DNA of 64,000 nt from an uncultured Candidatus Saccharibacteria bacterium. Its GTDB lineage: Bacteria > Patescibacteriota > Doudnabacteria > UBA920. The DNA lies in NCBI GenBank assembly GCA_964416765.1, contig CAYQEU010000001.1:1675-65674 (forward strand). The letters run 5' to 3'. Made by a program: the position numbers and the translations under genes. Under the pieces are notes generated by a model, which was given only the letters and a program-made list of their open reading frames with translations, was not told the DNA's origin and searched no databases. Of this stretch, positions 7,401 to 28,553 are shown piece by piece. Each line of letters opens with the position of its first letter. Position 1 is the first letter of the stretch.

Positions 7401-10400
7401 TACTACCGGTAAAACCATAACTACCAATAACCAGTTTTTCAACAATTTAGTTTTCAATAACGCCTCGGGCGGTTGGACTTATACTCCAACCCTGTACATG
7501 TCCGGGACTTTGACTGTTACCGCTGGCACACTGTCCGGTACCGGTAACGTGGAGACCGATGGGGGCAACACCACGGGGAATGGAACAATCAACATAACTG
7601 GCGGAACCTTTTCGCAGTATGCCGGGGGCAGCTTTGGTGGCAATACCAACTGGACCTTTAATGACATCCAGTTCGGGGATGATATTTCCGAAATGCATGC
7701 CACCGGAACCGGAACCATAACAGCCCGCTCTATTAGCTCGCTTTATGAGTGGCACGCCGGCAGCAAGACTTGGATTATTACGGGTACCGGCACTCCGCTT
7801 ACCAACAACGGTACGTTTTTTGGTGAGAATAGCACATTCCAGTTTACAGGCAGCACTGTTACGGTACCGGTGTTCGCATATAATAACCTAACCTTGGGGG
7901 GGAGCGGGACTTACACCATGCCGGCCTCAACCCTTACGCTCACTGGAAACCTGACCGTGACCAACGGGGCGACGGTGACAAAGGGAGCAGGAACTGTAGT
8001 GTTCGGGGGATCCACGCCTCAGACCATAACTGACAACAGTGGTACCAAACAGGACTTAGGGGCTCTTCAAGTCTCCAACACTACGCAGCCGTGGTGCAAC
8101 ATTTCTTCCACAGTATGTAATTCTTCCTGGCTGAACCGACGCAAGATTACTTTTAATAACAGCGCTTCTTCCGCGAACCTTACCAACTTCCCGGTTTTGG
8201 TTCAGCTGACTTCCGCCAACATCGACTACAACAAGACCAAAGCCAACGGCGCGGACCTTCGTTTCGTTGATGCTGATGGCACTACAGCCTTGAGTTATCA
8301 GATTGAAACCTGGAATACATCGGGAACATCCAACATATGGGTGAGGGTACCTCAGGTTAATAACACCACGACCGACTATATCTACATGTACTATAACAAC
8401 ACTGGGGCGGTAGATAGCCAGGCGGCCACCAGTGTGTGGGACTCAAACTTCAAGGGAGTGTGGCATCTCCCGGATGGTGGTACTCTTTCCACTGCGGATT
8501 CCACGAGCAACGCTAATAACGGGACTAATCAGGGAAGTACCATTGCCGCTGCAGGCAAGATTGGTGGGGGAGCGAACTTCATCAATAGCGGCAGCGACCT
8601 CGCGATTTCCAATATCTCCGTTAGCGGGGTTGCTTATACCATCAGCACCTGGTTTAATACTCCTTTTGGTAATGCCGGCAGCTACACTACCTTAACCCGT
8701 GGCGCCGCTGGTGACCACCAGGTCTTAATAGACCCGAGTAATATTCTGGGGGTATTTGATTCCAGCACCGGTTTCTATAGCTCAGGGTTTAATGTCACGT
8801 CTCTTTCCAGCGGCTGGCATCACTTAACCGCGTCAGCTACCGGCAGTACTACAACTTTCTATATCGATGGGGTAAGTGTTGGTTCTTCCTTATTTAAATC
8901 CAATACCAACATTAGTTACTTGGGTAACTGTGGCGTGTGTTCTGGCCAACGGTGGGGTTTGGCTGACGAAATGCGCGTTTCCACCGGCATTGCCCGCGAT
9001 GCTAACTGGGCCAAGGCGGACTACCTTTCCGAAAGCAACCAGATGAATACTTTTGGAAGTGAAGAATCCTCCACTGCGGTCGGGGTTGCATTGGGTTCTT
9101 CCATTAAAGCTACATCGGTAACAGTGGATGCTACTCGAGTTCTCAGCGCCAACGGCTCTAATACCCTAACTCTGGTAGGAAACGGCGCATCGGTGTTCGT
9201 GGTAAATGGCACGTTTGTCCCTTCTACCGGCACGGTTGATTTTAGCTCAGCAAGCACAACAGGAACTACTGTACCGGGCACGACTTTTTATAACCTCACC
9301 TTAAACAAAGCTTCCAATAACTTTACCTCCGGCGGTTCCATGACCGTAGGCGGTACGTTGACCATTAGTGCCGGCACCTTTACCGCACCTTCAGGCACTC
9401 TGACATTGAACGGGGACTTAGTTAATAGTGGCACCTTTACTCACAACAGCGGCACGGTAGTATTCGCCCCGACCAATGCCTCACTAAGTTCCACAATTTC
9501 AGGTAGTTCAAACATCACATTTAACAATGTCAGTGATACAACTCCCGGTTCCAGCATAATTTTCAAAAATGGGAGTACGTTCATTTTCTCCGGCACCCTA
9601 ACCGCCACGGGCACGGCGCAAAACGCGGTTTGGTTGAAGAGCGCTTCCCCAGGATCACAATGGACCGTTACTTTTAGCTCGACCCCTAGCCTTACAAACG
9701 TATCCGTGCAAGACGGTGCTTGTAATGGCGGGTTAACTTTGGCGCAAAACCCTTCCCTGCATAATGAAGGACGCAATGGTTCCTGCTGGGGCTTTATAAT
9801 CTACACTGGCGGCGGCGGTGCTTCTGACGGTGGTTCTGGCAACACCGGCGGCGAATCCGGCGGCGGCGGCGGAAGCGGCGGCGGTACAACCATTTCATTT
9901 ACTTCAAGCGGCTCTTGGACCGCGCCTGAGGGCGTAACTTCTGTTATTGTGGAAGCCTGGGGCGGCGGGGCCGGTGCCGGCAGGGGTACTACCATAGGTG
10001 GTTCTGGCGGCGGCGGCGGAGCGTATTCTAAGAAAAATTCTATCAGTGTAACCGCAGGTACTACATACACCGTAACTGTTGGCACTGGCGGAGCAGGGTC
10101 CACGGGGGGCAATGCCCAGGCGGGCGGTGACTCCTGGTTCTCTACTTCCGGTACTATACTGGCTAAGGGAGGCACGGCTGGAGCAGATAATGGCGGAGCT
10201 GTTGGAACCGGGGGCGCGGCGGGAAGCGGTATTGGTGATGTTAAATTCTCTGGAGCCAACGGAGGGACGGGTTCCAGTATCATAGGCGGAGGCGGTGGTG
10301 GAGGAGGGGGAGCTGGAACCGGCACTAATGGTAATCCAGGGGACGATGGTGTTTCTGGCGGCGGCGGCGGCAAGGGCGGCGCACTAAATGGCGGCGCTGG

Positions 10401-11244
10401 CGGTGATGGTCAATTCGGTAGCACGGGAGGTGCTGGATCAGTCCGCGCCGGCGGCGGCGGTGGTGGACAAGGCGCGGGCAGTAACGGCGGCGCAGGAGCC
10501 CGTGGTGAGATTCGGATAACCTACACAGTCAGTGGCGGCTCGGGCGGAAGCTCAACGAGTGGAAATACAACTACATTTACTTCAACTGGCTCATGGACTG
10601 CGCCAGCAGGCGTAACCTCGGTTACCGTTGAAGCCTGGGGCGCGGGCGGTTCTTCAGCCAGTGGTTCCTCGGGCGGTGCCGGACGGGGCGGTGGCGGAGG
10701 AGGAGCATATTCGTCCGCTACTATTACCGTTACTCCTGGTAACCAGTATACGGTAACGGTTGGTACTGGCGGTGCTGGACGGTCATGCTGTAGTGTTTTG
10801 GGACAAGCTGGGGGAGATTCCTGGTTCGGAACTACCGGCACATTGTTGGCAAAAGGTGGCTCCGGCGGAGACTTTTCCGGTACTGGCGCCTCAGGCGGCG
10901 CTGCGGCAGCCGGTGTAGGAACAATTAAGTTCTCTGGCGGTGCCGGCGGAAACAGCGCTGACAACACAGCGTCCTTTGGTGGCGGTGGCGGTGGCGGAGC
11001 CGGTACAACCGCCAACGGCGGTAACGGCGGCAATTCTTCCGGTGTAAATACCGTAGGAGCTGCGGGAACAGGCGGCTCCCTTAACGGCGGTAATGGCGGA
11101 ATTGGCGGAACCGGGGCCGGTTCAGTAAGAGGCGGCGGCGGCGGAGGGGCAAATGGCGCAACCGACTCTGTTGCTGGCGGTCGTGGTGAAGTTAGGATTA
11201 CCATCAATGCCACCCAAGGCGGCGGCGGTGGGGGATCCCCATAA
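4489..11244 (+). CDS. Giant secreted/surface protein (2251 aa). It has an N-terminal signal/anchor, three copies of an extremely glycine-rich domain, many PATR-like Ser/Thr/Gly beta-strand repeats, and a central DUF2341-like plus LamG/concanavalin-like module.
   Basis: N-terminal hydrophobic segment RKTFTLVGVFLFCALLVF. Gly-rich domain consensus 'W.APAGVTSV.VEAWGGGG...GGGGGAYS...ITVTPG..YTVTVGTGG' occurs at about 4650-5260, 9886-10512 and 10567-11217. The DUF2341-like signature LRFVDADGTTALSYQIETWNTSGTSNIWVRVPQV...IYMYYNN is followed by a lectin-like beta-sandwich region. There are dozens of SGT/TGT-rich roughly 20-aa beta-solenoid repeats. Confidence 0.85.
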   Translation: MNISIGKVRPGFGTRKTFTLVGVFLFCALLVFNGFFPSSGGIKKAHAAPVTITFYSDDYWQVPAGVTSVTIDAWGGGGGGNSIGQGGYGGGGGGYAHGTVSVTPGNYYDIIVGQGGVAGEKNGGAGGPTYFGGGDVGATGGDGGQSGIGPGVGGNIFAGDFGYSGGQGGYGDQFFSLLGGGGGGGAGSSGAGSTGDDGINGGAGGAGGPSEGGQGGHGGDSRSDGEPGYSIGGGGGGSGDGSFPGDGAAGQLWVTYIPPLICTSITSGSGNWNSASTWTNCGGGTPGSNDTAVIEGTAQITVTASTTVNNLQFGDNSTPATNAVLKVNSGQTLTVSNTTTVFSASNNNVQATIQDGTGSGTVSGVYLDIGSPVIPGTGSHETKLISSISNFSLAGSTTMHGYSGVSRDNDPTLEIPSGTMTTTSLTTTLSASWVTATISMNTGAQTGTLKLTSNPAWSISGTGTTNLNLAGTGNTVEYSGTNASILNTTYKNLKVSGALGTTAQTATVAGAFTVTGSGSMSPSSGTMTFNNGASINNSGTLNFYNLSTSVFSSVSSSGSFGVASGGTFTIGGASTFTPAAGDVITGTSATITGSGTAKVTRTAATADFNTQYNFGTKTLTNLTVDYAGSGQSLSNLTYGGLKVSGSITGATATATVGTNFNVTGTFTPSAGTITMSGTSSITNSGTLTFINLIINTLASVTGNTSFGVSGTFTENSGASFAAASGTQTFNNGSSIVKNSTQLLQFNNLTVAASGTITANVDMSINSAVTVLSSGTWNATAGTVTMMDGSSISNAGTLSFQNLTIGAGGTTNVTANASYTVKGGWTISSNATLSSSSGTVTLTASGTPFVMSGSFSPSGTNTVKYASSTGATVTSNISYQNLDISPSSGTPTFSVGFSNLSVGGDLTLTGTVATTFNLNNIASYLDVNGNVSINSGNTLVAPPSSAIFYIGGNYTNSGTLNNNVGTIQFDAGTTGKTITTNNQFFNNLVFNNASGGWTYTPTLYMSGTLTVTAGTLSGTGNVETDGGNTTGNGTINITGGTFSQYAGGSFGGNTNWTFNDIQFGDDISEMHATGTGTITARSISSLYEWHAGSKTWIITGTGTPLTNNGTFFGENSTFQFTGSTVTVPVFAYNNLTLGGSGTYTMPASTLTLTGNLTVTNGATVTKGAGTVVFGGSTPQTITDNSGTKQDLGALQVSNTTQPWCNISSTVCNSSWLNRRKITFNNSASSANLTNFPVLVQLTSANIDYNKTKANGADLRFVDADGTTALSYQIETWNTSGTSNIWVRVPQVNNTTTDYIYMYYNNTGAVDSQAATSVWDSNFKGVWHLPDGGTLSTADSTSNANNGTNQGSTIAAAGKIGGGANFINSGSDLAISNISVSGVAYTISTWFNTPFGNAGSYTTLTRGAAGDHQVLIDPSNILGVFDSSTGFYSSGFNVTSLSSGWHHLTASATGSTTTFYIDGVSVGSSLFKSNTNISYLGNCGVCSGQRWGLADEMRVSTGIARDANWAKADYLSESNQMNTFGSEESSTAVGVALGSSIKATSVTVDATRVLSANGSNTLTLVGNGASVFVVNGTFVPSTGTVDFSSASTTGTTVPGTTFYNLTLNKASNNFTSGGSMTVGGTLTISAGTFTAPSGTLTLNGDLVNSGTFTHNSGTVVFAPTNASLSSTISGSSNITFNNVSDTTPGSSIIFKNGSTFIFSGTLTATGTAQNAVWLKSASPGSQWTVTFSSTPSLTNVSVQDGACNGGLTLAQNPSLHNEGRNGSCWGFIIYTGGGGASDGGSGNTGGESGGGGGSGGGTTISFTSSGSWTAPEGVTSVIVEAWGGGAGAGRGTTIGGSGGGGGAYSKKNSISVTAGTTYTVTVGTGGAGSTGGNAQAGGDSWFSTSGTILAKGGTAGADNGGAVGTGGAAGSGIGDVKFSGANGGTGSSIIGGGGGGGGGAGTGTNGNPGDDGVSGGGGGKGGALNGGAGGDGQFGSTGGAGSVRAGGGGGGQGAGSNGGAGARGEIRITYTVSGGSGGSSTSGNTTTFTSTGSWTAPAGVTSVTVEAWGAGGSSASGSSGGAGRGGGGGGAYSSATITVTPGNQYTVTVGTGGAGRSCCSVLGQAGGDSWFGTTGTLLAKGGSGGDFSGTGASGGAAAAGVGTIKFSGGAGGNSADNTASFGGGGGGGAGTTANGGNGGNSSGVNTVGAAGTGGSLNGGNGGIGGTGAGSVRGGGGGGANGATDSVAGGRGEVRITINATQGGGGGGSP
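9886..11217 (+). repeat. Intragenic tandem duplication (two copies of about 630 nt, at 9886-10512 and 10567-11217) encoding the glycine-rich domain. A third, more diverged copy lies at about 4650-5260.
   Basis: DNA- and protein-level similarity is visible, e.g. TSSGSWTAPEGVTSVIVEAWGGGAG versus TSTGSWTAPAGVTSVTVEAWGAGGS, and both copies end ...RGE(I/V)RIT. Confidence 0.8.
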
Positions 11245-16940: not shown

Positions 16941-16969
16941 AAAAAAACCACCTAATCGGTGGTTTTTTT
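16941..16969. terminator. Bidirectional intrinsic terminator AAAAAAACCACC-TAATC-GGTGGTTTTTTT.
   Basis: Perfect stem flanked by an A-run and a T-run. It serves the plus-strand gene ending at 16920 and the minus-strand sodC, whose stop codon (TAG, 16952-16954) lies in the loop. Confidence 0.8.
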
Positions 16970-17467
16970 GATAATTCCGCAGGCGATGCGCGGACCTCCG
17001 CTTATGCCGGAGCCGTGTTCACCGCCTTGGTAAGGGTCGGGATTTCCGTGAATCATGAGGGAAGTACCTTCCCCGGCGAGGATGGAAGCGGCGCCATCGG
17101 AAAGGGTTACACGCGTGGTAATGGCTTCCAGGGTTCCCTTACCCTCTGAGCCGATTTCTATATTGGGTAAGTCACCAGCGTGGAAGGGATGGTTAACGTC
17201 GGGGTCGGAGTTTCCTGCCGGACCTGGATCAAAATGGCCGCCAGCGCATTTAAAGCTGTCGCCGCAATCCGCCTTTTCATGGATGTGGACGGCATGCATG
17301 CCTGGCTTCAACTTTTCCGGGTCGCCTTCCAATTGCAGGATAAGTTTAACCAGAGTTTGGGTACCGAATTGGTACTCCGTGAATACGGCATTCCCTTTGA
17401 TCCCGTCGCCTTCCAGCAATGCTTCGGCTTTCATGATTTCTTTAGGTTCGGATGAAAATAGTTCCAT
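16952..17467 (-). CDS. sodC: Cu/Zn superoxide dismutase (SodC family), apparently cytoplasmic with no signal peptide.
   Basis: HAVHIHE, GGHFDP, HPFHAGDLPN, LMIHGNPD and GGPRIACGII metal-ligand and fold motifs are present. The start is uncertain: ATGs at 17524, 17467 and 17434 are all in frame, and 17467 leaves a 17-nt gap to the upstream gene. Confidence 0.85.
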   Translation of the reverse strand: MELFSSEPKEIMKAEALLEGDGIKGNAVFTEYQFGTQTLVKLILQLEGDPEKLKPGMHAVHIHEKADCGDSFKCAGGHFDPGPAGNSDPDVNHPFHAGDLPNIEIGSEGKGTLEAITTRVTLSDGAASILAGEGTSLMIHGNPDPYQGGEHGSGISGGPRIACGIIKKTTD

Positions 17468-17484: not shown

Positions 17485-17985
17485 TTACCAGGCGCAGGAA
17501 GTGGGATCGCTGCACGCCATCCATGCCGTGGTCGGACGGACGGGATCATAAAATAGTTCAGTAGAAGAGGGGAACGTTTCCGGCCCCACGTCGCTTAAAA
17601 TCAATTTATATCTCAGGCCATCGGATTTGTAGTTATAGCCGGACCATCCTGTGGTTACGCCCAACGGGTCGGTGGGTAAGGTGCTCAAGTAAGTTGGTGT
17701 CAGGCCAGGAATGTATGCGTTGACACCGCTTGTAGTATGTCCACCACCGTTGGCGGAAGTGCCCCACCATTGGCTGCTGGTGCTTGGATATCCGTAGTTG
17801 GCGGTGTAGTAATTTTCCAACGCGGTTTTTAGTTGGGTTAAGTCTGCCTTGCGCTTAGTATCTCGTGAGGTTTTTCTTGCGCTGGCCAGTGAGGCAACCA
17901 TAATGCTGGCCAGTAACCCGATGATGCCAATTACCACCATCAACTCAATCAAACTAAAACCCTTTTGTCTCTTAAGTGTTATCAT
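17485..17985 (-). CDS. Type IV pilin-like protein (prepilin-type N-terminal cleavage/methylation domain).
   Basis: N-terminus MITLKRQKGFSLIELMVVIGIIGLLASI with a class III signal (G|FSLIE). The C-terminal region is globular and Cys-containing. Confidence 0.85.
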   Translation of the reverse strand: MITLKRQKGFSLIELMVVIGIIGLLASIMVASLASARKTSRDTKRKADLTQLKTALENYYTANYGYPSTSSQWWGTSANGGGHTTSGVNAYIPGLTPTYLSTLPTDPLGVTTGWSGYNYKSDGLRYKLILSDVGPETFPSSTELFYDPVRPTTAWMACSDPTSCAW

Positions 17986-18266
17986 GGGTTTTTCTCCAGC
18001 TTCGGGGGCTCACCGGGCGTATTGGTCATGTGGTAGCCAGCCGGGGGAGTGTAGTTAGCGGGGTTAGTCGTGGTTTTGGTGTATTCACGAATGAAATAAC
18101 CTAGTGCAGCCAGTGACGCAATGACAAATATGATAGCACCTGCCATTTTTAGGGTCGGATGCGCTGATTCAACTCGTTTAGGCGCTGGAGCTTGTTTGTT
18201 ATTTTGGTTTCCGGGGAAGAAACCACTGAAATCAACACCTTCTTCACTTTTGGGGTTTTGGGCCAT
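17982..18266 (-). CDS. Small membrane protein (94 aa) with an N-terminal EEGVDFSGFF motif. It pairs with the pilin gene (ATGA overlap) and is a paralog of 27583..27867.
   Basis: Single TM segment AGAIIFVIASLAALGYFI, and a 4-nt overlap with the downstream pilin start. Confidence 0.6.
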   Translation of the reverse strand: MAQNPKSEEGVDFSGFFPGNQNNKQAPAPKRVESAHPTLKMAGAIIFVIASLAALGYFIREYTKTTTNPANYTPPAGYHMTNTPGEPPKLEKNP

Positions 18267-18313: not shown

Positions 18314-18958
18314 TTACTTTTCCACCACAATCATGGCGGAATCCCGGATTTTTGCGTTTAGGTGAATGCCGGAGGAATAGTCCTGCATGGCCCGTTCAAA
18401 TATGCTCTCGCTCGCGCGCCGATAGGCACCAGTCATGGGGTCATGGAAGATTATTTCGCCATTGTCATGCCCCACGACCACCACTGTGTGGCGGGTGGTG
18501 AAGCTGTTGTACAGCCTTGTGCTGAGCACACGGGGGTTTAAGGGGGTAATGACCAGGCTTCCATTATCCAGCTGCGCCTTGATGTCCTGAACGGTGACAT
18601 TGTGCACTACTCTTAACCCATGGTATCCATAATACTGCACCATTAAATTTGCCGTATCCTGGGCCGAGGTATCCTGGTAAAATCCGTGAAAGAATTTTTC
18701 GTAATCAGACATGCCCACTATTTCATCTCGCGCTTGTTCTTTTGACATTGGGTTCCCACTTTCCCACATTACCGCCATGAGAATGCTTGCTTCTTCGCAG
18801 CCGTCGCTTTGTCGCGGATCACTCCATTGGCCCAGAGGCGCCTGGCTGGTGTAAGGAACGGCCAGAGTTGCCGCGAGCGATGGATGCGCAAAAACAAATA
18901 TTCCGGCCAACGCCAGAAATACTCCCACTCCTTGTTTTAGTGTGTTTGTTTTAATCAT
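18314..18958 (-). CDS. Secreted peptidase_C39-like (papain-fold Cys/His) domain protein.
   Basis: Signal peptide. The candidate catalytic Cys sits in SDGCEEASILMA and the His in HTVVVVGHD, in the order and spacing typical of C39-like domains. Confidence 0.55.
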   Translation of the reverse strand: MIKTNTLKQGVGVFLALAGIFVFAHPSLAATLAVPYTSQAPLGQWSDPRQSDGCEEASILMAVMWESGNPMSKEQARDEIVGMSDYEKFFHGFYQDTSAQDTANLMVQYYGYHGLRVVHNVTVQDIKAQLDNGSLVITPLNPRVLSTRLYNSFTTRHTVVVVGHDNGEIIFHDPMTGAYRRASESIFERAMQDYSSGIHLNAKIRDSAMIVVEK

Positions 18959-19000
18959 TGGGTAAAAAAATCGGGCGCTTTTTGGGCGCCCGATTGATAG

Positions 19001-19912: not shown

Positions 19913-20467
19913 ATGATGGACAAAAGCCAAGTAAATGATTTAGTGGCCAAAATCCAAAAAGGAGATGAGCAAGCATTTTCGCTTATTTATGACGAATTTG
20001 CTGACCGAATCTACAAGTTTACATGCCTAAAGGTGTCCGAGCCAGAAGTGGCGGAAGACCTCCTCCAGGAAGTTTTCGTTAAAGCCTGGCAGGGGTGCAA
20101 AACCCTGGAATTGGAAGACTTGAATTTTTCGGCCTGGCTCTACCGGGTAGCGTCGAATACGATCAACGACCATTATCGGAAAGCGTATAGGCGGCCTCAG
20201 ACCACGGAGTTGGATCCGGCGTTCAACATCGCGTCGACCGACGTTACCGAAAAGGCGACTGAGGATTCTTTTGATGCCCAAGCCATGCGTGAAGTAATAG
20301 ATGAGTTGCCCGCCAACTATAAGCAGATAATCGAACTTCGTTATTTCCAGGATTTCACGGTTGAAGAAACCGCTAAGGTCTTGAACAAAAGCAGTGTCAC
20401 AATCCGTGTGCTCCAGCACCGGGCAACTAAAAAATTAAGACAATTATATAGAGAGAATGGACGATAA
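19913..20467 (+). CDS. ECF-type RNA polymerase sigma factor (sigma-70 regions 2 and 4).
   Basis: Region 2 LLQEVFVKAWQG...FSAWLYRVASNTINDHYRK. Region 4 ELPANYKQIIELRYFQDFTVEETAKVLNKSSVTIRVLQHRATKKLRQ. Confidence 0.9.
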   Translation: MMDKSQVNDLVAKIQKGDEQAFSLIYDEFADRIYKFTCLKVSEPEVAEDLLQEVFVKAWQGCKTLELEDLNFSAWLYRVASNTINDHYRKAYRRPQTTELDPAFNIASTDVTEKATEDSFDAQAMREVIDELPANYKQIIELRYFQDFTVEETAKVLNKSSVTIRVLQHRATKKLRQLYRENGR

Positions 20468-21251
20468 GTTAAAACAATTATATAGACAATATTCCGAAAG
20501 CGGTCATTCCGCTTTGTCACCCGAGGCAAAGTCCCGGGTAAAGGATAAAGTATTCCAGCGTCTTTCCGAGCCGGCTACTGCAGTGCAACCACAGCCGGTT
20601 TCATTTTGGGAAAAATTACGCGGAAGTTTTGTAGTGCGCAGTTATGTAATTGTGCCACTGGCTTTAATTTTAATAATAATTTCCAGTACCGCTGCCTCCG
20701 CTACATCTTTGCCGGGAGACTTGTTGTACCCGCTGAAGCGCCAGGTGGAGAGCGCCAGAATCTGGCTTGCGCCTACCCCGGCAGCCCGCATGGACTTGGA
20801 AGTAAATTTCGCTGAACAACGCTTGCAGGAATTGAAGAACCTTCAGGATGATGAATTCCCGATGCTTCCGCTGCAAACAGGTAACAGCAGCACTGGGGTT
20901 TCCGCCAACGCAAGTTCAAACGCCAACATCTCTAACAGCAATTCTGATAAAAACGACGATGCCATAAAGGCTGCCAAGAAGAAACGCAAAGAACAAGCCA
21001 AAAAAGAAGCTAATGACGCTCTGGAATTTCTCAAGAAGGCGCAATCCCAGTATCAGAAAGATAGACAAAACCAAAAAGCCGACAACCTTAACAGGGTTAT
21101 CGACGATTTGAAAAACAGCATAAAGAGAGACGATGACGGCAACCAGCCGCCATCGTCTGTAAATGGGGTTCCGCCAGTCAACCTAAATGTTAACGCCAAC
21201 ATTCAGGGTAGTATCCCACCGGTGCATGTAAGCTTGCCTCACGGTCTTTAA
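20457..21251 (+). CDS. Putative anti-sigma factor (single-pass membrane protein), with a DUF5667-like extracytoplasmic LPGDLLYPLKR segment and a C-terminal Lys/Asn-rich region.
   Basis: It overlaps the sigma gene by 11 nt. A cytoplasmic N-terminus is followed by TM segment VIVPLALILIIISSTAASA. Confidence 0.6.
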   Translation: MDDKLKQLYRQYSESGHSALSPEAKSRVKDKVFQRLSEPATAVQPQPVSFWEKLRGSFVVRSYVIVPLALILIIISSTAASATSLPGDLLYPLKRQVESARIWLAPTPAARMDLEVNFAEQRLQELKNLQDDEFPMLPLQTGNSSTGVSANASSNANISNSNSDKNDDAIKAAKKKRKEQAKKEANDALEFLKKAQSQYQKDRQNQKADNLNRVIDDLKNSIKRDDDGNQPPSSVNGVPPVNLNVNANIQGSIPPVHVSLPHGL

Positions 21252-24666: not shown

Positions 24667-25176
24667 CTAAGAAAGTTGTTCAGGTTCAGGCCGAACGGCG
24701 CTATATATTGCCCAGGCGCAGGCAATAAGGATGGCGGCGACCCCCAGAAATCGTATGGCCGCGGCGACCCCAATTGTATGATGCAGCATGCCGGCCCGGA
24801 TTAACAACCAGTTCCAATCGTGCGTCGAACTGTCGCCAAACAGCAGGGGCAGCTGCATTTTTACCGCGTCGCCCGCGTAAACGGAAACGTTTAGCAGGTT
24901 TTCGCCGACCCAAAACAGGACTAAAGCGGCGGAAAAGTACTGTTCCTGGTAAGCAAAGTAGATTACAAAAATGGCGGGAAGCAATACCTGGGTGAGGCTT
25001 CCGCCCAAGGCGTACATAAAATCACCAAACGGCATGAAAATAATGTGGCCGCCTTCGTGAATCAACAGGTTCGCGTTATCAATAAAGTGCCAGGCTCCCG
25101 GGTTTAAGCAGCAACCAATGAAATAAATGGAAGCAATTATGGCGATAGCAAGCTTGAAGTAGTTATGGTTGGTCAT
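24667..25176 (-). CDS. Polytopic membrane protein with an HExxH motif (putative membrane-embedded zinc metalloprotease, DUF3267-like).
   Basis: LIHEGGHIIFMPFG lies within or next to a TM segment. There are 4 to 5 hydrophobic helices, and a 4-nt ATGA overlap with the upstream gene. Confidence 0.5.
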   Translation of the reverse strand: MTNHNYFKLAIAIIASIYFIGCCLNPGAWHFIDNANLLIHEGGHIIFMPFGDFMYALGGSLTQVLLPAIFVIYFAYQEQYFSAALVLFWVGENLLNVSVYAGDAVKMQLPLLFGDSSTHDWNWLLIRAGMLHHTIGVAAAIRFLGVAAILIACAWAIYSAVRPEPEQLS

Positions 25177-25676
25177 AACGGGTTGTCGCGGAGCTTTAAT
25201 AGGTAACCAGCATAAGCCAGAATAGGTTGGATCAGCAAAGTAACTATTAATCCTACAGCGGCTATCGGCAACTGTTCCTTGCCCAGAGTTACAAAAACTA
25301 TTCCGGTTACAATTATGGAATCGCCGTGGTCTATGATTGGGACATACTTTCCCCGAGGAACGCCAAACCGCCTTTTGATGAAAGCTCCGCAGGCATGACC
25401 CAGGTATACCGTTAGCCCTTTAAGCGCGCCCAAAGCCGGGCTGGTTATGAATGATTCTATAAGCATGCCGGAAAGAATTGCGACCGGCAAACCAACCCAG
25501 GTAGTAGAAACTCCCAGCAGTCGGTACCCGTCTCCCAGAGTGTAGCCGAGGTCAAGCGGCGCGTCGTATTTAAGGAGTGCGGGACGGCGTAATTTGAGCA
25601 GGTACCATAAATTCAGCGCAATATTAATGCACCAACAGGGAATTGTATACAGGAGTACATGGTATAGCTCCGTCAT
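25173..25676 (-). CDS. CDP-archaeol synthase-like (CarS/DUF46 family) integral membrane cytidylyltransferase homolog.
   Basis: DLGYTLGDGYRLLGVSTTWVGLPVAILSG resembles the CarS 'D.G..L.DG.RLLGD.KTWRG' signature, and about five TM helices fit a CarS-family protein. The start codon overlaps the upstream stop by 1 nt. Confidence 0.5.
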   Translation of the reverse strand: MTELYHVLLYTIPCWCINIALNLWYLLKLRRPALLKYDAPLDLGYTLGDGYRLLGVSTTWVGLPVAILSGMLIESFITSPALGALKGLTVYLGHACGAFIKRRFGVPRGKYVPIIDHGDSIIVTGIVFVTLGKEQLPIAAVGLIVTLLIQPILAYAGYLLKLRDNPL

Positions 25677-27088
25677 TAAGACTTGATTTCCAGGTCGCTG
25701 ATGAAAAAGTTTTGCAGACCGGAACTCAGGAAATATTGTTCGACGACATTAACTTCGCGGGGCCAGCATTGCGGAAAGGCAAGCTCGACTTGGTATCGGT
25801 ACAAGCCATGGTCGGACCCGAGTTCCTTTATGGAGTTGAACATTTCCTTTACGGTTGCCGTCTGGAACTGCTCAAAGGTGGAAAGTACAAAGTTAAACCG
25901 GGTGCGGCTGCCATGGGTCATGCAAGTTTCGCCGGGTACGGTGACCGGTTGGAAGTTATCAAGCAAACCCTGCTCATTCAGAATTTGTCCCACAGTAGTG
26001 GGCTGACCAGGAAGGTAGGAATATATGGTCATGTTGCCAATTATTTTAACAGGTTTGTAAGCTGGGTCGTGCGGGTCATGGAACATTCCGACCAGTGCGC
26101 CTTCATCACCAATTGCCTGATGACGGTAGCTGGCCAGCGATAAATCAGCTGAGAGGGGATAATAAAACATCAAGGCGATGAAAATTCCACACAATAGGGC
26201 CGGCCGGTTTACAGCCTTGCCCCAGCTTACGTAGACCAAAGCCATCATGGCAAAAGCGTAGAGGCAGATTAGGTAAAGCTGGAAGGAAAAATCGGAAAAG
26301 CCGGAATACATTCCAAGCCAGTAGCAAACTACAACAAGCGCGGCGTAAAACAAGGCCCAGAGTAGGATAGCGTTCTTGAGCCAGGGTTTGCCACGAAAAA
26401 TCAGGTAAACGAATAGCGGTATACTGACTGCCGCTTCGTGGGTAAATGGCCCGCCATCAACTATGTTTTTTACAATACTGAAAGTAACAATAGCGAAAAT
26501 GAGCCCGTAAAGACGTGGGAATTTTTCCTGCTGCCACGTCGCGAGGAACTGCCAGGCTAGCAGATAGAGGATTGCTATTATTAAGATAATTCCAACCCAG
26601 GCCACCCAGTCGGGGACCAGCCCTACGAAAGCGTAACCAGTATCAATATTTTCCTGGCTGGCTTTGTGAGTGAAAGAAAGAATTGTGCCGGAAACAACTT
26701 TGAAAGTGTGATTATGGAGCAACTTGGTGCTTGAAAGCTCCCCGTGGTTTTCAGCAATTACGTAGTCCTGGTAGCTAAAACCGTAGTGGTGATAGAACCA
26801 GACAAAACTCCCAATATTGAGCAGAAAAGACAACAACACGGCCCCGACTAAGACGTTTTTCCAGCGGGCCTTAATTTTGGGCAGCGCTATTTTAAGATTT
26901 ACCGCCAGCAGAATAAGTAAAAGGTAGGCGAGGAATAGCACTACCTTGGTGAAGCTTCGCCCACCGGCGAAAATATTTATGAGTGAATGGAGGAAAAGGA
27001 AAACGTAGTCTGACCAGACGATAAGTCCGGCTAGTATTATGACGGCGGCAATGCCGCCCCAGCGCTTAAAGAGAGAGCCCAAAGCCAT
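25676..27088 (-). CDS. Large polytopic membrane protein (470 aa, about 10 TM segments plus a C-terminal soluble domain of about 140 aa), possibly a GT-C-like or ligase-like enzyme; function unknown.
   Basis: Hydrophobicity pattern. Translationally coupled to the pilin gene (23-nt overlap). Confidence 0.6.
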   Translation of the reverse strand: MALGSLFKRWGGIAAVIILAGLIVWSDYVFLFLHSLINIFAGGRSFTKVVLFLAYLLLILLAVNLKIALPKIKARWKNVLVGAVLLSFLLNIGSFVWFYHHYGFSYQDYVIAENHGELSSTKLLHNHTFKVVSGTILSFTHKASQENIDTGYAFVGLVPDWVAWVGIILIIAILYLLAWQFLATWQQEKFPRLYGLIFAIVTFSIVKNIVDGGPFTHEAAVSIPLFVYLIFRGKPWLKNAILLWALFYAALVVVCYWLGMYSGFSDFSFQLYLICLYAFAMMALVYVSWGKAVNRPALLCGIFIALMFYYPLSADLSLASYRHQAIGDEGALVGMFHDPHDPAYKPVKIIGNMTIYSYLPGQPTTVGQILNEQGLLDNFQPVTVPGETCMTHGSRTRFNFVLSTFEQFQTATVKEMFNSIKELGSDHGLYRYQVELAFPQCWPREVNVVEQYFLSSGLQNFFISDLEIKS

Positions 27089-27596
27089 GATTTTCTCCCC
27101 ATTTGGCTTGGCCAGACTCCAGATGCTCTGCCCAAAGTTGGTACATGTAGTTTAGTTCGGTAGTTCCCAAGCCGCACCCTATTCTGTTGCACCAATCGGA
27201 CATAGCACTTGGGGGTACGTATCCATATACATAGTAGTAATTGTCGTCGCCAGCGCAATTGATGCCACAAGGGTCCTTAGAGATATTTTTGGCATATGGC
27301 GATAGGTCAGTGGCCAAAAATTTCCACTGGTCAGAATAATCATAAATAGTCGAACAAGTGCCCGGGTTTTCTGCCTTACAGTCGTACTTTCCGGCATACG
27401 GAGCATGGTCTTTATCTATAGTGTATGCCTGGATGGCGGTGTCAATTTGTTTAATATCTGCTTTACGTTTGGCGTCACGAGCCAGTTTCCTTGCGGTACT
27501 GACTGATGTCAACACGATGCTGGCCAACAGTCCAATAATGGCAATCACAACGAGCAGTTCGATTAAAGTAAAACCAGCTTGTCTATTTTTGCGCAT
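27066..27596 (-). CDS. Type IV pilin-like protein (prepilin-type N-terminal domain), Cys-rich C-terminal domain.
   Basis: MRKNRQAGFTLIELLVVIAIIGLLASI N-terminus, then several Cys residues. Confidence 0.85.
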   Translation of the reverse strand: MRKNRQAGFTLIELLVVIAIIGLLASIVLTSVSTARKLARDAKRKADIKQIDTAIQAYTIDKDHAPYAGKYDCKAENPGTCSTIYDYSDQWKFLATDLSPYAKNISKDPCGINCAGDDNYYYVYGYVPPSAMSDWCNRIGCGLGTTELNYMYQLWAEHLESGQAKWGENHGFGLSL

Positions 27597-27867
27597 TGGT
27601 ATTTAGGTTTACATTTTTTACTACCCCATGAATGTTTATCTTAGTGGTGGTTTTTTTGGGGGCAGGAGGGGTAGGACGACTCACATACAAAATTATAATC
27701 TGGACGATAGTCAAAACCGCCAGGACGATGGCAAGAATCAGGATTCTTCGGGGAATGCGCTTGATTCGCGATGGCGGTGTCATAGGGATTTGGGGTGTGG
27801 TTGGTTGCTCTACTTGGAAGTGGCTAAAGTCTAAGCCCTCTTCTTCTTGAGGTTGTTCCAAAGGCAT
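27583..27867 (-). CDS. Small membrane protein (94 aa) with an EEGLDFSHF motif; paralog of 17982..18266, overlapping the pilin start by 14 nt.
   Basis: MPLEQPQEEEGLDFSHFQ... and TM segment ILILAIVLAVLTIVQIIILYV. Confidence 0.6.
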   Translation of the reverse strand: MPLEQPQEEEGLDFSHFQVEQPTTPQIPMTPPSRIKRIPRRILILAIVLAVLTIVQIIILYVSRPTPPAPKKTTTKINIHGVVKNVNLNTNAQK

Positions 27868-27968
27868 GTGCTTATTTTACCATAGTTTAATGCCTTTTGC
27901 CTGTAATTTGGCCAATATAGTGCTATTATTATGTTATGGAAATAGGAACCCCCACAACTAAGAGAAGA

Positions 27969-28553
27969 ATGTCTGAGAGAGGGTTTACCCTTATTGAATT
28001 GCTAATGGTCATAGCCATCATAGGCTTGCTGGCTTCCATTACTTTAACCAGCGTGACCGCGGTACGGGACAAAGCCCGAGACACCAGACGAGTGACCGAC
28101 GTGAAGCAGCTAGCGGGTGCCGTAGAACTTTATCGACTGGCCAATGGCACGTATCCAGTGGCCGCTGTTCCGACACTATCCATACCGGGAGTTTCCCCGA
28201 CGTACGTTAGTTCTATTCCCGCGGCTCCAGTGCCGCCGGCCCGGAACTGTACCTCTTCCCAAAACCAATATTTGTACCAATCTGACGGAACCAATTATGG
28301 AATCCAGTTTTGCATCGGGGGAAATGTGGGAAGTATCGGATCGGGTGTGGGGGTTATGTCAGACAAAGGAGCAGGTTTGCGTTATGACGTAAACGGCGAT
28401 GGGGTTGTAGACAATAATGACCCAAATTATATTGCACAATACGTTGTGCTTTTAGTAAACAGTTGCCCGCTATACCTATGTGATATCAGCGGCGATGGCG
28501 TAGTTACCGCACAGGACGCCGCGCTCTTGGCACAGATTATTGCGGGATCCTAA
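27969..28553 (+). CDS. Type IV pilin-like protein with two C-terminal dockerin-like calcium-binding repeats.
   Basis: MSERG|FTLIELLMVIAIIGLLASI, where the in-frame ATG at 27936 is an alternative start. C-terminal DVNGDGVVDNNDPNYIAQYV and DISGDGVVTAQDAALLAQII match the dockerin repeat pattern D.NGDG.V...D. Confidence 0.8.
   Translation: MSERGFTLIELLMVIAIIGLLASITLTSVTAVRDKARDTRRVTDVKQLAGAVELYRLANGTYPVAAVPTLSIPGVSPTYVSSIPAAPVPPARNCTSSQNQYLYQSDGTNYGIQFCIGGNVGSIGSGVGVMSDKGAGLRYDVNGDGVVDNNDPNYIAQYVVLLVNSCPLYLCDISGDGVVTAQDAALLAQIIAGS

What the first reader, a model, noticed from the sequence alone, without database searches (positions are those of the whole stretch)
17485..18266. Duplicated two-gene cassette: EEG(L/V)DFS small membrane protein plus type IV prepilin
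Cassette A (17982..18266 plus 17485..17985) and cassette B (27583..27867 plus 27066..27596) have the same architecture. Each has a 94-aa single-pass membrane protein beginning ...EEG(V/L)DFS(G/H)F and ending in a TM helix. Its stop overlaps the start of a prepilin with the class III FTLIELL N-terminus. A conserved partner protein for pilins of this kind is not, to my knowledge, a described part of type IV pilus systems.
Basis: seen in the sequence. Interest (0 to 1): 0.55.

Follow-up and report, generated by a model that had tools for sequence, protein, structure and literature searches.

The report
Small membrane partner gene of pilins
Two type IV pilin genes in this candidate-phyla-radiation (Doudnabacteria-like) genome are each preceded by, and overlap, a gene for a roughly 90-residue single-pass membrane protein of an undescribed family. 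That family has a pilin gene directly downstream in all 12 cassettes checked, so it is probably a pilin-specific helper, though its mechanism is unknown.

Summary
Both 94-aa ORFs are real genes under strong purifying selection (dN/dS 0.07-0.14). Each overlaps the start of a type IV prepilin, by 4 nt in cassette A and 14 nt in cassette B.

They belong to a rare, undescribed family of 81-102 aa proteins. An exhaustive profile search of 1.84 billion representative proteins gave 11 hits, one of them spurious. Pfam, NCBIfam, PHROGs, PADLOC and PDB gave nothing.

The shared design is:
- an acidic N-terminus with an invariant DFSx[F/Y][F/Y/Q] motif at residues 10-14, predicted cytoplasmic;
- one central TM helix;
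- a 19-37 aa outside tail, which in most subtypes carries P-x-G-Y...PPKLEK and is modelled as a beta-hairpin.

In all 12 cassettes checked (10 sequence-distinct loci), a prepilin starts between 14 nt of overlap and 12 nt downstream of the small gene's stop, while the other neighbours reshuffle. Small-protein similarity tracks the similarity of the partner pilin's globular domain (Mantel r 0.80-0.86).

The two window cassettes are ancient paralogues (25% identity, no DNA-level repeat).

Best reading: a pilin-dedicated accessory protein, analogous to but unrelated to TfpX/Y/Z/FimB. The mechanism is inferred, not shown.

The parts
17982..18266 (-). Small gene A: 94-aa single-pass membrane protein of the DFS family, A-type, with the C-terminal PAGYxMT...EPPKLEK tail
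   Evidence: ORF. dN/dS is 0.07-0.14 against orthologues in L002 and L005. Family HMM E 2.5e-38. AF2 model: coil 1-36, helix 37-64, hairpin 78-81/89-92.
18216..18245 (-). Codons for EEGVDFSGFF (residues 8-17 of small A): the family's invariant N-terminal motif, predicted cytoplasmic
   Evidence: D12, F13 and S14 are invariant and F16 nearly so across 15 members. The motif always starts at residue 10-14. The flank before the TM holds more K+R than the flank after it in 17 of 19 members.
18075..18158 (-). TM helix of small A (residues 37-64)
   Evidence: AF2 helix 37-64, pLDDT 84-88. Hydropathy maximum at residues 41-59.
17991..18044 (-). Extracytoplasmic tail motif PAGYHMTNTPGEPPKLEK of small A (residues 75-92), modelled as a beta-hairpin
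   Evidence: P75, G77, P87, P88, K89, L90 and K92 are invariant in the A-like group. The LEK codons vary synonymously between loci, so the constraint is on the protein and not only on a ribosome-binding site. AF2 strands 78-81 and 89-92, pLDDT 75-79.
17485..17985 (-). Prepilin A, 166 aa: leader MITLKRQKG|FSLIELM, with a C-terminal Cys...Cys loop
   Evidence: PF07963 E 8e-9, TIGR02532 and GspG-like hits. N-terminus matches solved pilins. dN/dS 0.013. Start overlaps the small A stop as ATGA.
27583..27867 (-). Small gene B: 94-aa DFS-family protein, B-type. It has no PPKLEK tail and carries a Gln in mid-TM.
   Evidence: ORF. 25% identity to small A, E 6e-6. dN/dS 0.067 against L096. Family HMM E 2.4e-26.
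27814..27843 (-). Codons for EEGLDFSHFQ (residues 9-18 of small B)
27688..27744 (-). TM segment of small B (residues 42-60, ILILAIVLAVLTIVQIIIL), preceded by RIKRIPRR
   Evidence: Hydropathy and positive-inside count: 5 K/R before the TM against 3 after.
27066..27596 (-). Prepilin B, 176 aa: leader MRKNRQAG|FTLIELL, with a Cys-rich globular domain
   Evidence: PF07963 E 2.6e-10 and TIGR02532. 14-nt overlap with small B. dN/dS 0.137.
25676..27088 (-). 470-aa polytopic membrane protein. Its start overlaps the prepilin B stop by 23 nt. It is a conserved third gene of the B-type cassette.
   Evidence: The homologue sits in the same position in L010 (28% identity, E 5e-52) and in L096. No Pfam, NCBIfam or PDB hit. 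Function unknown.
18314..18958 (-). Secreted Peptidase_C39_2-like protein, 47 nt upstream of small A. Probably the first gene of the same transcription unit.
   Evidence: PF13529 E 4.7e-13. A strong terminator lies just upstream of it. A C39_2 gene recurs upstream of the cassette in L002/L004/L005, L007, L008 and L095.
16952..17467 (-). Cu/Zn superoxide dismutase gene, 17 nt downstream of prepilin A
   Evidence: PF00080 E 7e-29. Gene call in L001. In L013 and L095 it lies upstream of the small gene instead.
18969..18995 (.). Strong hairpin terminator (10-12 bp stem, 7 G-C pairs) that marks the upstream end of the probable unit C39_2 - small A - pilin A - SodC
27914..27942 (-). Promoter-like site (TTTCCA-17-TATATT) upstream of small B. 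This is a consensus match only.

Best explanation
**Shown.** The small ORFs are real genes of an undescribed family of bitopic membrane proteins.
- The N-terminus is predicted to lie inside the cell and the C-terminus outside.
- Each small gene is fused at the gene level to one type IV prepilin gene, with stop and start overlapping or at most 12 nt apart.
- The pair is inherited and duplicated as a unit, and small gene and pilin diversify together.

**Inferred.** The small protein is a pilin-dedicated accessory factor.
- It has the same membrane orientation as the prepilin, so its TM helix and short outside tail could contact the cognate pilin while that pilin waits in the membrane. The tail is modelled as a beta-hairpin, and it changes when the pilin head changes.
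- The invariant cytoplasmic acidic-aromatic peptide (E-E-G-x-D-F-S-x-F-F) is the part that does not change with the pilin. It would therefore dock onto something common to all cassettes. Candidates are a cytoplasmic face of the pilus machine (PilM, PilB, PilC or the prepilin peptidase) or the invariant, basic pilin leader and N-terminus.
- The net effect would be to escort, stabilise or prioritise one particular pilin for processing or assembly in a cell that encodes several pilins.
For: **Coding and selection.**
- dN/dS is 0.07-0.14 for small A and 0.067 for small B.
- Family members under 50% identical keep the same motifs and layout.

**Linkage.**
- A prepilin follows in every context examined: window A and B, L002-L006, L007 (two tandem cassettes), L008, L009-L011, L012, L013, L095, L096-L098, and a JGI contig with two tandem cassettes.
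- The pilin start lies between 14 nt of overlap and 12 nt downstream of the small gene's stop. Six of the 11 sequence-distinct cassettes with DNA in hand use the 4-nt ATGA overlap.
- Neighbours move: C39_2, TsaD and SodC change position. The pair is never split.

**Co-diversification.** Mantel r is 0.86 (p 2e-4) over all pairs, and 0.80 (p 4e-4) with one pair per lineage, between small-protein similarity and the similarity of the partner pilin's globular domain.

**Topology.**
- There are more K+R before the TM than after it in 17 of 19 members.
- AF2 gives a confident TM helix at residues 37-64 and a moderately confident hairpin in the tail.

**Protein-level constraint on the tail.** LEK is encoded by CTGGAGAAA, TTGGAGAAA, CTGGAAAAA or CTGGAAAAG in different loci.

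Against: - No physical interaction was tested.
- Co-diversification of two adjacent genes is expected from linkage alone and does not prove contact.
- The family is rare and narrow. The exhaustive search gave about ten 50%-identity clusters, a scan of GTDB species representatives with the narrow A1-derived patterns ([PSL][KQ][SEG]EEG[VL]DF and a C-terminal pattern, which would miss most of the divergent members found later) gave none, and the JGI contigs gave two loci. It cannot be a general pilus component.
- The third pilin in the window has no such partner.
- No pilus machinery gene lies in the window, so no docking partner can be named.
- The B-type lacks the conserved tail motif, so the tail-pilin contact idea does not generalise cleanly.
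- The N-terminal region is modelled with low confidence (pLDDT 53-61).
Confidence: 0.5

Rival explanations
1. Negative regulator or gate. The small protein binds the newly inserted prepilin and holds it back, either from the prepilin peptidase or from the assembly platform, or it reports the size of the membrane pilin pool. It would control when that pilin is used rather than help assemble it.
For: - The linkage, topology and co-diversification evidence is the same as for the main reading.
- The acidic N-terminus (net charge down to -6 over residues 1-20) is complementary to the basic prepilin leaders, for example MITLKRQKG and MRKNRQAG. It could mask the cleavage site.
- The small gene is upstream, so the partner is made first.
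Against: - The invariant part of the motif is aromatic (D-F-S-x-F-F) rather than simply acidic, and some members have a net charge of 0 or +1.
- Leaders differ greatly in length (8-23 residues) while the motif does not change.
- Nothing here separates positive from negative action.
Confidence: 0.15
2. Co-expressed but functionally independent envelope protein. The small protein would be a surface or membrane factor, for example a displayed peptide or a stress-related protein. It would merely share a promoter with the pilin and the other exported proteins nearby (C39-like peptidase, Cu/Zn SOD).
For: - The cassette A unit probably also contains a secreted C39_2 peptidase and SodC.
- An ECF sigma/DUF5667 pair lies divergently next to it in the window, L002, L005 and L095.
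- Linkage alone explains the Mantel correlation.
Against: - SodC, TsaD and C39_2 shift position or drop out, whereas the small gene and pilin are never separated and usually overlap.
- Whole small+pilin pairs are duplicated in tandem in L007 and the JGI contig and occur twice in the window.
- Co-regulation alone does not require this.
Confidence: 0.15
3. Precursor of a released peptide. The outside tail (PAGYxMT...EPPKLEK) would be cut off, for example by the neighbouring secreted C39-like cysteine peptidase, and would act as a signal or as a pilus-associated peptide.
For: - A C39_2 peptidase with a signal peptide is encoded just upstream in several lineages.
- The tail motif is strongly conserved in most subtypes.
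Against: - B-type members have no conserved tail and no adjacent C39_2 gene in the window.
- There is no double-glycine-type leader.
- The most conserved element is the cytoplasmic N-terminal motif, which this idea leaves unexplained.
Confidence: 0.05
4. Minimal version of the PilN/PilO/GspM alignment proteins. It would be a bitopic protein whose N-terminal peptide binds PilM, serving as a platform component rather than a pilin-specific factor.
For: The overall plan is the same: a short conserved cytoplasmic N-terminal peptide followed by one TM helix.
Against: - No PilN, PilO, GspL or GspM Pfam hit appears, even at E<=1, for any of 15 members.
- The outside part is only 19-37 residues, too short for the ferredoxin-like periplasmic domain.
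- It is encoded next to pilins and in several copies per genome, not next to the machinery.
- CPR bacteria are reported to have ordinary PilM/N/O (PMC6744442, PMC11623550).
Confidence: 0.04
5. Chance ORFs or untranslated leader regions upstream of the pilin genes.
For: - The ORFs are short, with no database annotation beyond 'hypothetical protein'.
- There is no clear Shine-Dalgarno sequence before small A or small B.
Against: - dN/dS is about 0.07-0.14, with dS up to about 1.
- The layout is conserved down to about 25% identity.
- The HMM and the motif regex are specific to these genes among 5213 segments.
Confidence: 0.01

Closest known systems
TfpX/TfpY/TfpZ/FimB pilin accessory proteins of Pseudomonas aeruginosa, Dichelobacter, Neisseria and Acinetobacter (PMC11841053)
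   Same: - Membrane proteins encoded in a two-gene cassette with a particular pilin gene and co-varying with the pilin type.
- Not part of the core machinery.
[quoted passage not shown]
   Different: - TfpY-like proteins are 235-245 aa with three TM helices and a globular periplasmic alpha/beta domain.
- They lie downstream of pilA, behind an attenuating terminator, and are found in Pseudomonadota.
- The DFS family is 81-102 aa with one TM helix and a 19-37-residue tail.
- It lies upstream, overlaps the pilin start, and occurs in Patescibacteria.
- No direct sequence comparison with TfpX/Y/Z was run; none of the four family libraries or PDB matched anything.
TfpO (PilO) and TfpW pilin glycosyltransferases
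   Same: Pilin-specific accessory genes adjacent to the pilin gene (PMC11841053). The 470-aa polytopic protein after prepilin B occupies the equivalent downstream position.
   Different: - The small DFS proteins are far too small to be enzymes of this kind.
- The 470-aa protein has no detectable glycosyltransferase or O-antigen-ligase domain, and its model was unusable.
PilN/PilO (and GspL/GspM) alignment subcomplex proteins
   Same: Bitopic, with the N-terminus inside. A short conserved cytoplasmic N-terminal peptide comes before the TM helix; in PilN this peptide binds PilM (established knowledge).
   Different: - No sequence match.
- No periplasmic domain.
- Pilin-linked and multi-copy rather than machinery-linked and single-copy.
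Type IV prepilins (class III signal peptide, PF07963/TIGR02532): the partner genes
   Same: Prepilins A and B have the G|F(S/T)LIEL cleavage/methylation motif with Glu at +5 and a hydrophobic alpha-1 N-terminal segment.
   Different: The small proteins themselves lack the G-F-x-x-x-E motif, so they are not pilins or pseudopilins.

Membership tests
Type IV prepilin (partner genes 17485..17985 and 27066..27596) | N-terminal class III signal: a short basic leader ending in Gly, then F/M at +1, Glu at +5 and a run of about 20 hydrophobic residues | tested here: met
   MITLKRQKG|FSLIELMVVIGIIGLLAS and MRKNRQAG|FTLIELLVVIAIIGLLAS. PF07963 at E 8e-9 and 2.6e-10, above the cut-off; TIGR02532 above the cut-off.
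Type IV prepilin (partner genes) | Processing by a prepilin peptidase and assembly by a PilB/PilC-type machine | not testable with these tools
   No PilD, PilB, PilC or PilM gene lies in the 64-kb window. The rest of the genome is not available.
TfpX/TfpY/TfpZ/FimB pilin accessory proteins | Three N-terminal TM helices plus a periplasmic globular alpha/beta domain, about 235-245 aa (PMC11841053) | tested here: not met
   One TM helix, 81-102 aa, and a 19-37-residue tail.
TfpX/TfpY/TfpZ/FimB pilin accessory proteins | [quoted passage not shown] | tested here: not met
   The small gene is always upstream, with its stop overlapping or at most 12 nt from the pilin start.
TfpX/TfpY/TfpZ/FimB pilin accessory proteins | Sequence homology to TfpY/FimB | not tested
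None of the four profile libraries nor PDB gave any hit.
TfpX/TfpY/TfpZ/FimB pilin accessory proteins | Physical interaction with the cognate pilin, and a requirement for optimal pilus assembly | not testable with these tools
PilN / PilO / GspM | Match to PF05137/PF04350-type profiles, and a periplasmic coiled-coil plus ferredoxin-like domain of about 100 aa or more | tested here: not met
   No such Pfam hit at E<=1 for any of 15 members. The outside part is 19-37 residues.
DFS-motif small pilin-partner family (proposed here) | 81-102 aa, with D-F-S-x-[FY]-[FYQ] at residues 10-14, a single central TM helix, and basic residues before the TM | tested here: met
   Both window proteins and all 17 other members meet this. 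HMM E 2.5e-38 for A and 2.4e-26 for B.
DFS-motif small pilin-partner family (proposed here) | A type IV prepilin gene starts between 14 nt of overlap and 12 nt downstream of the small gene's stop, on the same strand | tested here: met
   True for both window cassettes and for every other locus examined.
DFS-motif small pilin-partner family (proposed here) | C-terminal P-x-G-Y ... (E/A)PPKLEK tail | tested here: inconclusive
   Present in small A and most subtypes. Absent from small B and P0014. It is therefore a subtype feature, not a defining one.

The most novel reading that the evidence does not exclude
The DFS proteins are a new class of single-pass 'pilin escorts'. Each would bind its own pilin in the membrane through its TM helix and outside hairpin. 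Through the invariant cytoplasmic E-E-G-x-D-F-S-x-F-F peptide, it would plug that pilin into the cytoplasmic side of the type IV pilus motor (PilM, PilB or PilC). This would give ultra-small CPR cells a modular, cassette-encoded way to choose which of several pilins is loaded into one shared machine.
Probability: 0.22. Interest if true: 0.7.

Novelty: new variant of a known kind. Interest (0 to 1): 0.5.

Why it matters
**Biological context.** Type IV pili are thought to be central to how CPR/Patescibacteria attach to and live on host cells. These genomes carry many highly divergent pilins but few machines.

**What it would offer if true.**
- How a cell decides which pilin enters a shared machine is poorly understood in any system. 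A gene-fused, pilin-specific membrane partner with an invariant cytoplasmic docking peptide would be a simple, testable handle on that question.
- It would extend the pilin-accessory cassette idea from Pseudomonadota to monoderm-like CPR bacteria, with an unrelated and much smaller protein.

**Annotation value.** The family gives a motif (DFSx[FY][FY] at residues 10-14, then one TM helix) that flags otherwise 'hypothetical' short genes and their partner pilins.

**Limit on impact.** The family looks rare and confined to a Doudnabacteria-like lineage.

Tried and rejected
**Searches that found little or nothing.**
- Word-indexed homologue searches with small A and small B found only close relatives. 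The exhaustive profile search was needed to find distant members.
- A scan of GTDB species-representative genomes with alignment A1 found no confirmed member.
With A3 it gave only two loci.
- The viral contig scan found none.
- Pfam, NCBIfam, PHROGs, PADLOC and PDB profile searches gave only TM-helix noise: rhodopsins, DUFs below cut-off, and 'small_EYxxD' at E 0.004, below cut-off.

**Structure prediction.**
- Single-sequence AF2 of the 470-aa downstream membrane protein gave mean pLDDT 46, so no fold search was run.

**Ideas considered and rejected.**
- The conserved KLEK tail is merely the pilin's Shine-Dalgarno sequence (GGAG in CTGGAGAAA). Rejected because the codons vary synonymously and in L013 and L095 the tail lies well upstream of a separated pilin start.
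- The small protein is itself a prepilin-peptidase substrate. Rejected because it has no G-F-x-x-x-E and no hydrophobic run after the N-terminus.
- A recent segmental duplication. Rejected because there is no DNA repeat.
- P0008 (1359 aa, 7 short stretches) was treated as a proline-rich false positive.
Full report
**1. The observation**

- **Cassette A.** Small A is 17982..18266(-), 94 aa. Its TGA shares three bases with the ATG of prepilin A at 17485..17985(-), 166 aa. This is the ATGA arrangement, a 4-nt overlap.
- **Cassette B.** Small B is 27583..27867(-), 94 aa. It overlaps prepilin B, 27066..27596(-), 176 aa, by 14 nt. That ATG is the only possible start upstream of GFTLIEL.
- **Pilin identity.** Both downstream proteins are bona fide type IV prepilins. 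They hit PF07963 and TIGR02532 above cut-off, with Gly at -1, Phe at +1 and Glu at +5. The N-terminus of prepilin A matches solved pilins.
- **Similarity.** The two small proteins align at 25% identity, E 6e-6. The two pilins are 63% identical over the N-terminal 54 residues and unrelated beyond that.
- **Other pilins.** A six-frame motif scan finds exactly three pilins and exactly two EEGxDFS proteins in the window.

Two details of the finding need correcting. The TM helix is central, not terminal. No DNA-level repeat links the cassettes, so they are old paralogues rather than a recent duplication.

**2. Are the small ORFs genes?**

Yes.

- Small A has dN/dS of 0.07-0.14 against orthologues in three other assemblies, at dS of 0.66-0.99.
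- Small B has dN/dS of 0.067.
- For comparison, pilin A is at 0.013 and pilin B at 0.137.

An exhaustive HMMER profile search of 1.84 billion representative proteins returned 11 hits, one of them a spurious proline-rich 1359-aa protein. The rest are 81-102 aa proteins with the same layout at 23-49% identity to small A.

A profile search of the 5.8-billion-cluster collection added three more members. A further member was found by eye in L007 and confirmed by HMM at E 3e-16.

**3. Anatomy of the family**

| Region | Feature | Evidence |
|---|---|---|
| N-terminus | Usually acidic run, then invariant D-F-S, one variable residue, then F/Y and F/Y/Q. Motif starts at residue 10-14. | |
| Linker | 25-38 residues, non-conserved, ending in a cluster of K/R | |
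| TM | One TM helix | |
| Tail | 19-37 residues. The A-like, P0010/P0011-like and P0015-like subtypes carry P-x-G-Y and (E/A)PPKLEK or a degenerate version. The B-like subtype (small B, P0014) lacks it. | |

- **Orientation.** There are more K+R before the TM than after it in 17 of 19 members. This predicts the N-terminus inside and the C-terminus outside, which is the orientation of a prepilin.
- **Model.** AF2 with a 14-sequence alignment gives a disordered N-terminus (pLDDT 53-61) and a confident helix at 37-64 (pLDDT 84-88). The tail is modelled as a moderately confident two-stranded hairpin, strands 78-81 and 89-92, pLDDT 75-79.
- **Mid-TM residue.** Most non-A subtypes keep a Gln or Glu in mid-TM (P0015 has Ile); A-types have Gly-Tyr/Phe slightly further along the helix.
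- **Database matches.** None is significant in Pfam, NCBIfam, PHROGs, PADLOC or PDB for any member.

**4. Linkage to pilins**

Every context that could be read shows a prepilin directly downstream, on the same strand.

| Context | Arrangement |
|---|---|
| A-type orthologues L002-L006 | small + pilin |
| L007 | two tandem small+pilin cassettes, both with ATGA overlap |
| JGI contig (3300071358) | two tandem cassettes |
| L008 | small + pilin |
| L009-L011 | small + pilin |
| L012 | small + pilin |
| L013 | small + pilin |
| L095 | small + pilin |
| L096-L098 | small + pilin |

The pilin start lies between 14 nt of overlap and 12 nt downstream of the small gene's stop.

The surrounding genes reshuffle, and the pair is never split:

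| Locus | Gene order |
|---|---|
| Window, L002 | C39_2 peptidase - small - pilin - SodC |
| L095 | C39_2 - SodC - small - pilin |
| L007, L008 | C39_2 - TsaD - small - pilin |
| L009 | TsaD - small - pilin |

Small-protein similarity correlates with the similarity of the partner pilin's globular domain. Mantel r is 0.86 (p 2e-4) over all pairs and 0.80 (p 4e-4) with one pair per lineage. This shows the pair is inherited and duplicated as one unit. It does not by itself prove physical contact.

The conserved LEK tail is encoded by different synonymous codons in different loci, so it is not merely the pilin's ribosome-binding site.

**5. Genomic context**

- **Taxonomy.** DnaK from the window is 92% identical to one MAG and about 80% identical to many MAGs labelled Candidatus Doudnabacteria or Patescibacteria.
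- **Machinery.** The window holds no PilB/C/D/M/N/O/T genes.
- **Cassette A unit.** Cassette A probably belongs to a unit that starts after a strong terminator at 18969..18995. The unit would comprise a secreted C39_2-like peptidase, small A, pilin A and Cu/Zn SOD.
- **Cassette B unit.** Cassette B heads a tightly packed run. Pilin B is overlapped by a 470-aa polytopic membrane protein, which is conserved after the B-like cassette of L010 (28% identity, E 5e-52). A CarS-like protein follows.
- **Third pilin.** It lies divergently next to small B, carries a C-terminal dockerin, and has no DFS partner.

**6. Mechanism**

*Shown.* The small ORFs are a real, selected, single-pass membrane protein family, gene-fused to pilin genes and co-diversifying with them. 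Topology is predicted as N-in/C-out.

*Inferred.*

1. The protein acts on its cognate pilin. This rests on unbroken adjacency through rearrangements and on repeated duplication of the whole pair.
2. The variable TM and tail would supply pilin specificity. The tail motif changes when the pilin head changes, and a hairpin could extend the edge of the pilin beta-sheet.
3. The invariant cytoplasmic D-F-S-x-F-F peptide would bind something common to all cassettes, either a cytoplasmic face of the machine or the invariant pilin N-terminus and leader.

I put about 0.5 on 'pilin-dedicated accessory factor' and about 0.2 on the specific escort-and-dock version.

*Rivals.*

| Rival | Confidence |
|---|---|
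| Gate or negative regulator | 0.15 |
| Merely co-expressed envelope protein | 0.15 |
| Precursor of a released peptide cut by the C39-like peptidase | 0.05 |
| Mini-PilN | 0.04 |
| Non-coding or chance ORF | 0.01, refuted |

**7. Comparison with known systems**

The closest described kind is the pilin-accessory gene cassette of Pseudomonas and relatives: TfpO/W glycosyltransferases and the TfpX/Y/Z/FimB family (PMC11841053). In that paper TfpY is required for optimal assembly, likely interacts with pilins, and is not detected in the fibre.

The DFS family shares the logic: a membrane protein encoded with, and varying with, one pilin. It fails the TfpY family's architectural criteria. TfpY-like proteins have three TM helices plus a globular domain, are 235-245 aa, lie downstream behind a terminator, and occur in Pseudomonadota.

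The family also resembles PilN in having a conserved cytoplasmic N-terminal peptide before one TM helix. It has no PilN/PilO profile match and no periplasmic domain. CPR bacteria are reported to have ordinary PilM/N/O (PMC6744442 and PMC11623550). Neither paper mentions a small pilin-linked membrane protein.

**8. Verdict**

- The small proteins define an undescribed, rare, lineage-restricted family of probable pilin accessory proteins. This is a new variant of a known kind, not a new kind of system.
- Function is inferred from genetics only.
- Interest is 0.5. The finding is solid and testable, but narrow in distribution and without a demonstrated mechanism.

Noticed in passing
window 27936..28553 (+): A third type IV prepilin (leader MEIGTPTTKRRMSERG|FTLIELL) carries a C-terminal type I dockerin domain (PF00404, E 4.7e-8). 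It is divergently transcribed from small B, and the same arrangement is seen in L096. A dockerin on a pilin suggests the pilus could bind a cohesin-bearing partner. It has no DFS partner gene.
   Followed up: partly
window 25676..27088 (-), then 25173..25676 (-): A 470-aa polytopic membrane protein overlaps the stop of prepilin B by 23 nt. It is conserved after the B-like cassette of L010 (28% identity, E 5e-52). A CarS-like (PF01864) membrane protein follows. The 470-aa protein has no Pfam, NCBIfam or PDB match, and single-sequence AF2 was unusable (pLDDT 46). It could be a pilin-modifying module, but that is only an idea.
   Followed up: partly
window 18314..18958 (-); also L002, L004, L005, L007, L008, L095: A secreted Peptidase_C39_2-like protein is encoded just upstream of cassette A. 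It recurs upstream of DFS-pilin cassettes in several diverged lineages, sometimes with TsaD or SodC in between. Its relation to the cassette is unknown.
   Followed up: partly
window 19913..21251 (+); L002, L005, L095: An ECF sigma factor gene with an overlapping DUF5667 gene (possible anti-sigma) lies divergently next to the C39_2-small-pilin unit. This neighbourhood is conserved in relatives and hints at ECF control of the unit.
   Followed up: no
window 16952..17467 (-); L013 179..688; L095 4443..4952: The Cu/Zn superoxide dismutase gene sits immediately after pilin A in the window and in L002. In L013 and L095 it sits immediately before the small gene. It has hopped across the pair without splitting it.
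   Followed up: yes
L007 6001..7822; JGI 3300071358 contig 234..2011: Two DFS-small+pilin cassettes lie in direct tandem. In L007 both have the ATGA stop/start overlap. The second small protein (88 aa, KEVDFSNFY...PDGYQW) was missed by the database searches but scores E 3e-16 with the family HMM.
   Followed up: yes
TM segments of small B (window 27688..27744) and of P0010, P0011, P0014, P0017, P0018, L007 second copy: These non-A-type members keep a Gln or Glu in the middle of the TM helix (TIVQII, VVEIG, LLLQIV, AVEAY). A-type members have Gly-Tyr/Phe slightly further along the helix. A buried polar residue in a single-pass helix suggests a helix-helix contact.
   Followed up: no
window 75..4370 (+) and 4489..11244 (+): Two giant ORFs. 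One is 1431 aa with no Pfam match. The other is 2251 aa with Gly_rich_2 and DUF2341 domains. They are probably large surface proteins typical of CPR genomes.
   Followed up: no
window 18969..18995: A perfect-looking bidirectional hairpin terminator (AATCGGGCGC...GCGCCCGATT) lies between the DUF5666 protein gene and the C39_2 gene.
   Followed up: no
Genome-contig results: Many of the closest DnaK relatives are labelled 'uncultured Candidatus Saccharibacteria', and a few Binatia, Acidobacteriaceae, Gammaproteobacteria or Thermoplasmata. The consistently named ones are Candidatus Doudnabacteria or Patescibacteria. The odd labels look like default or mis-binned MAG names.
   Followed up: no
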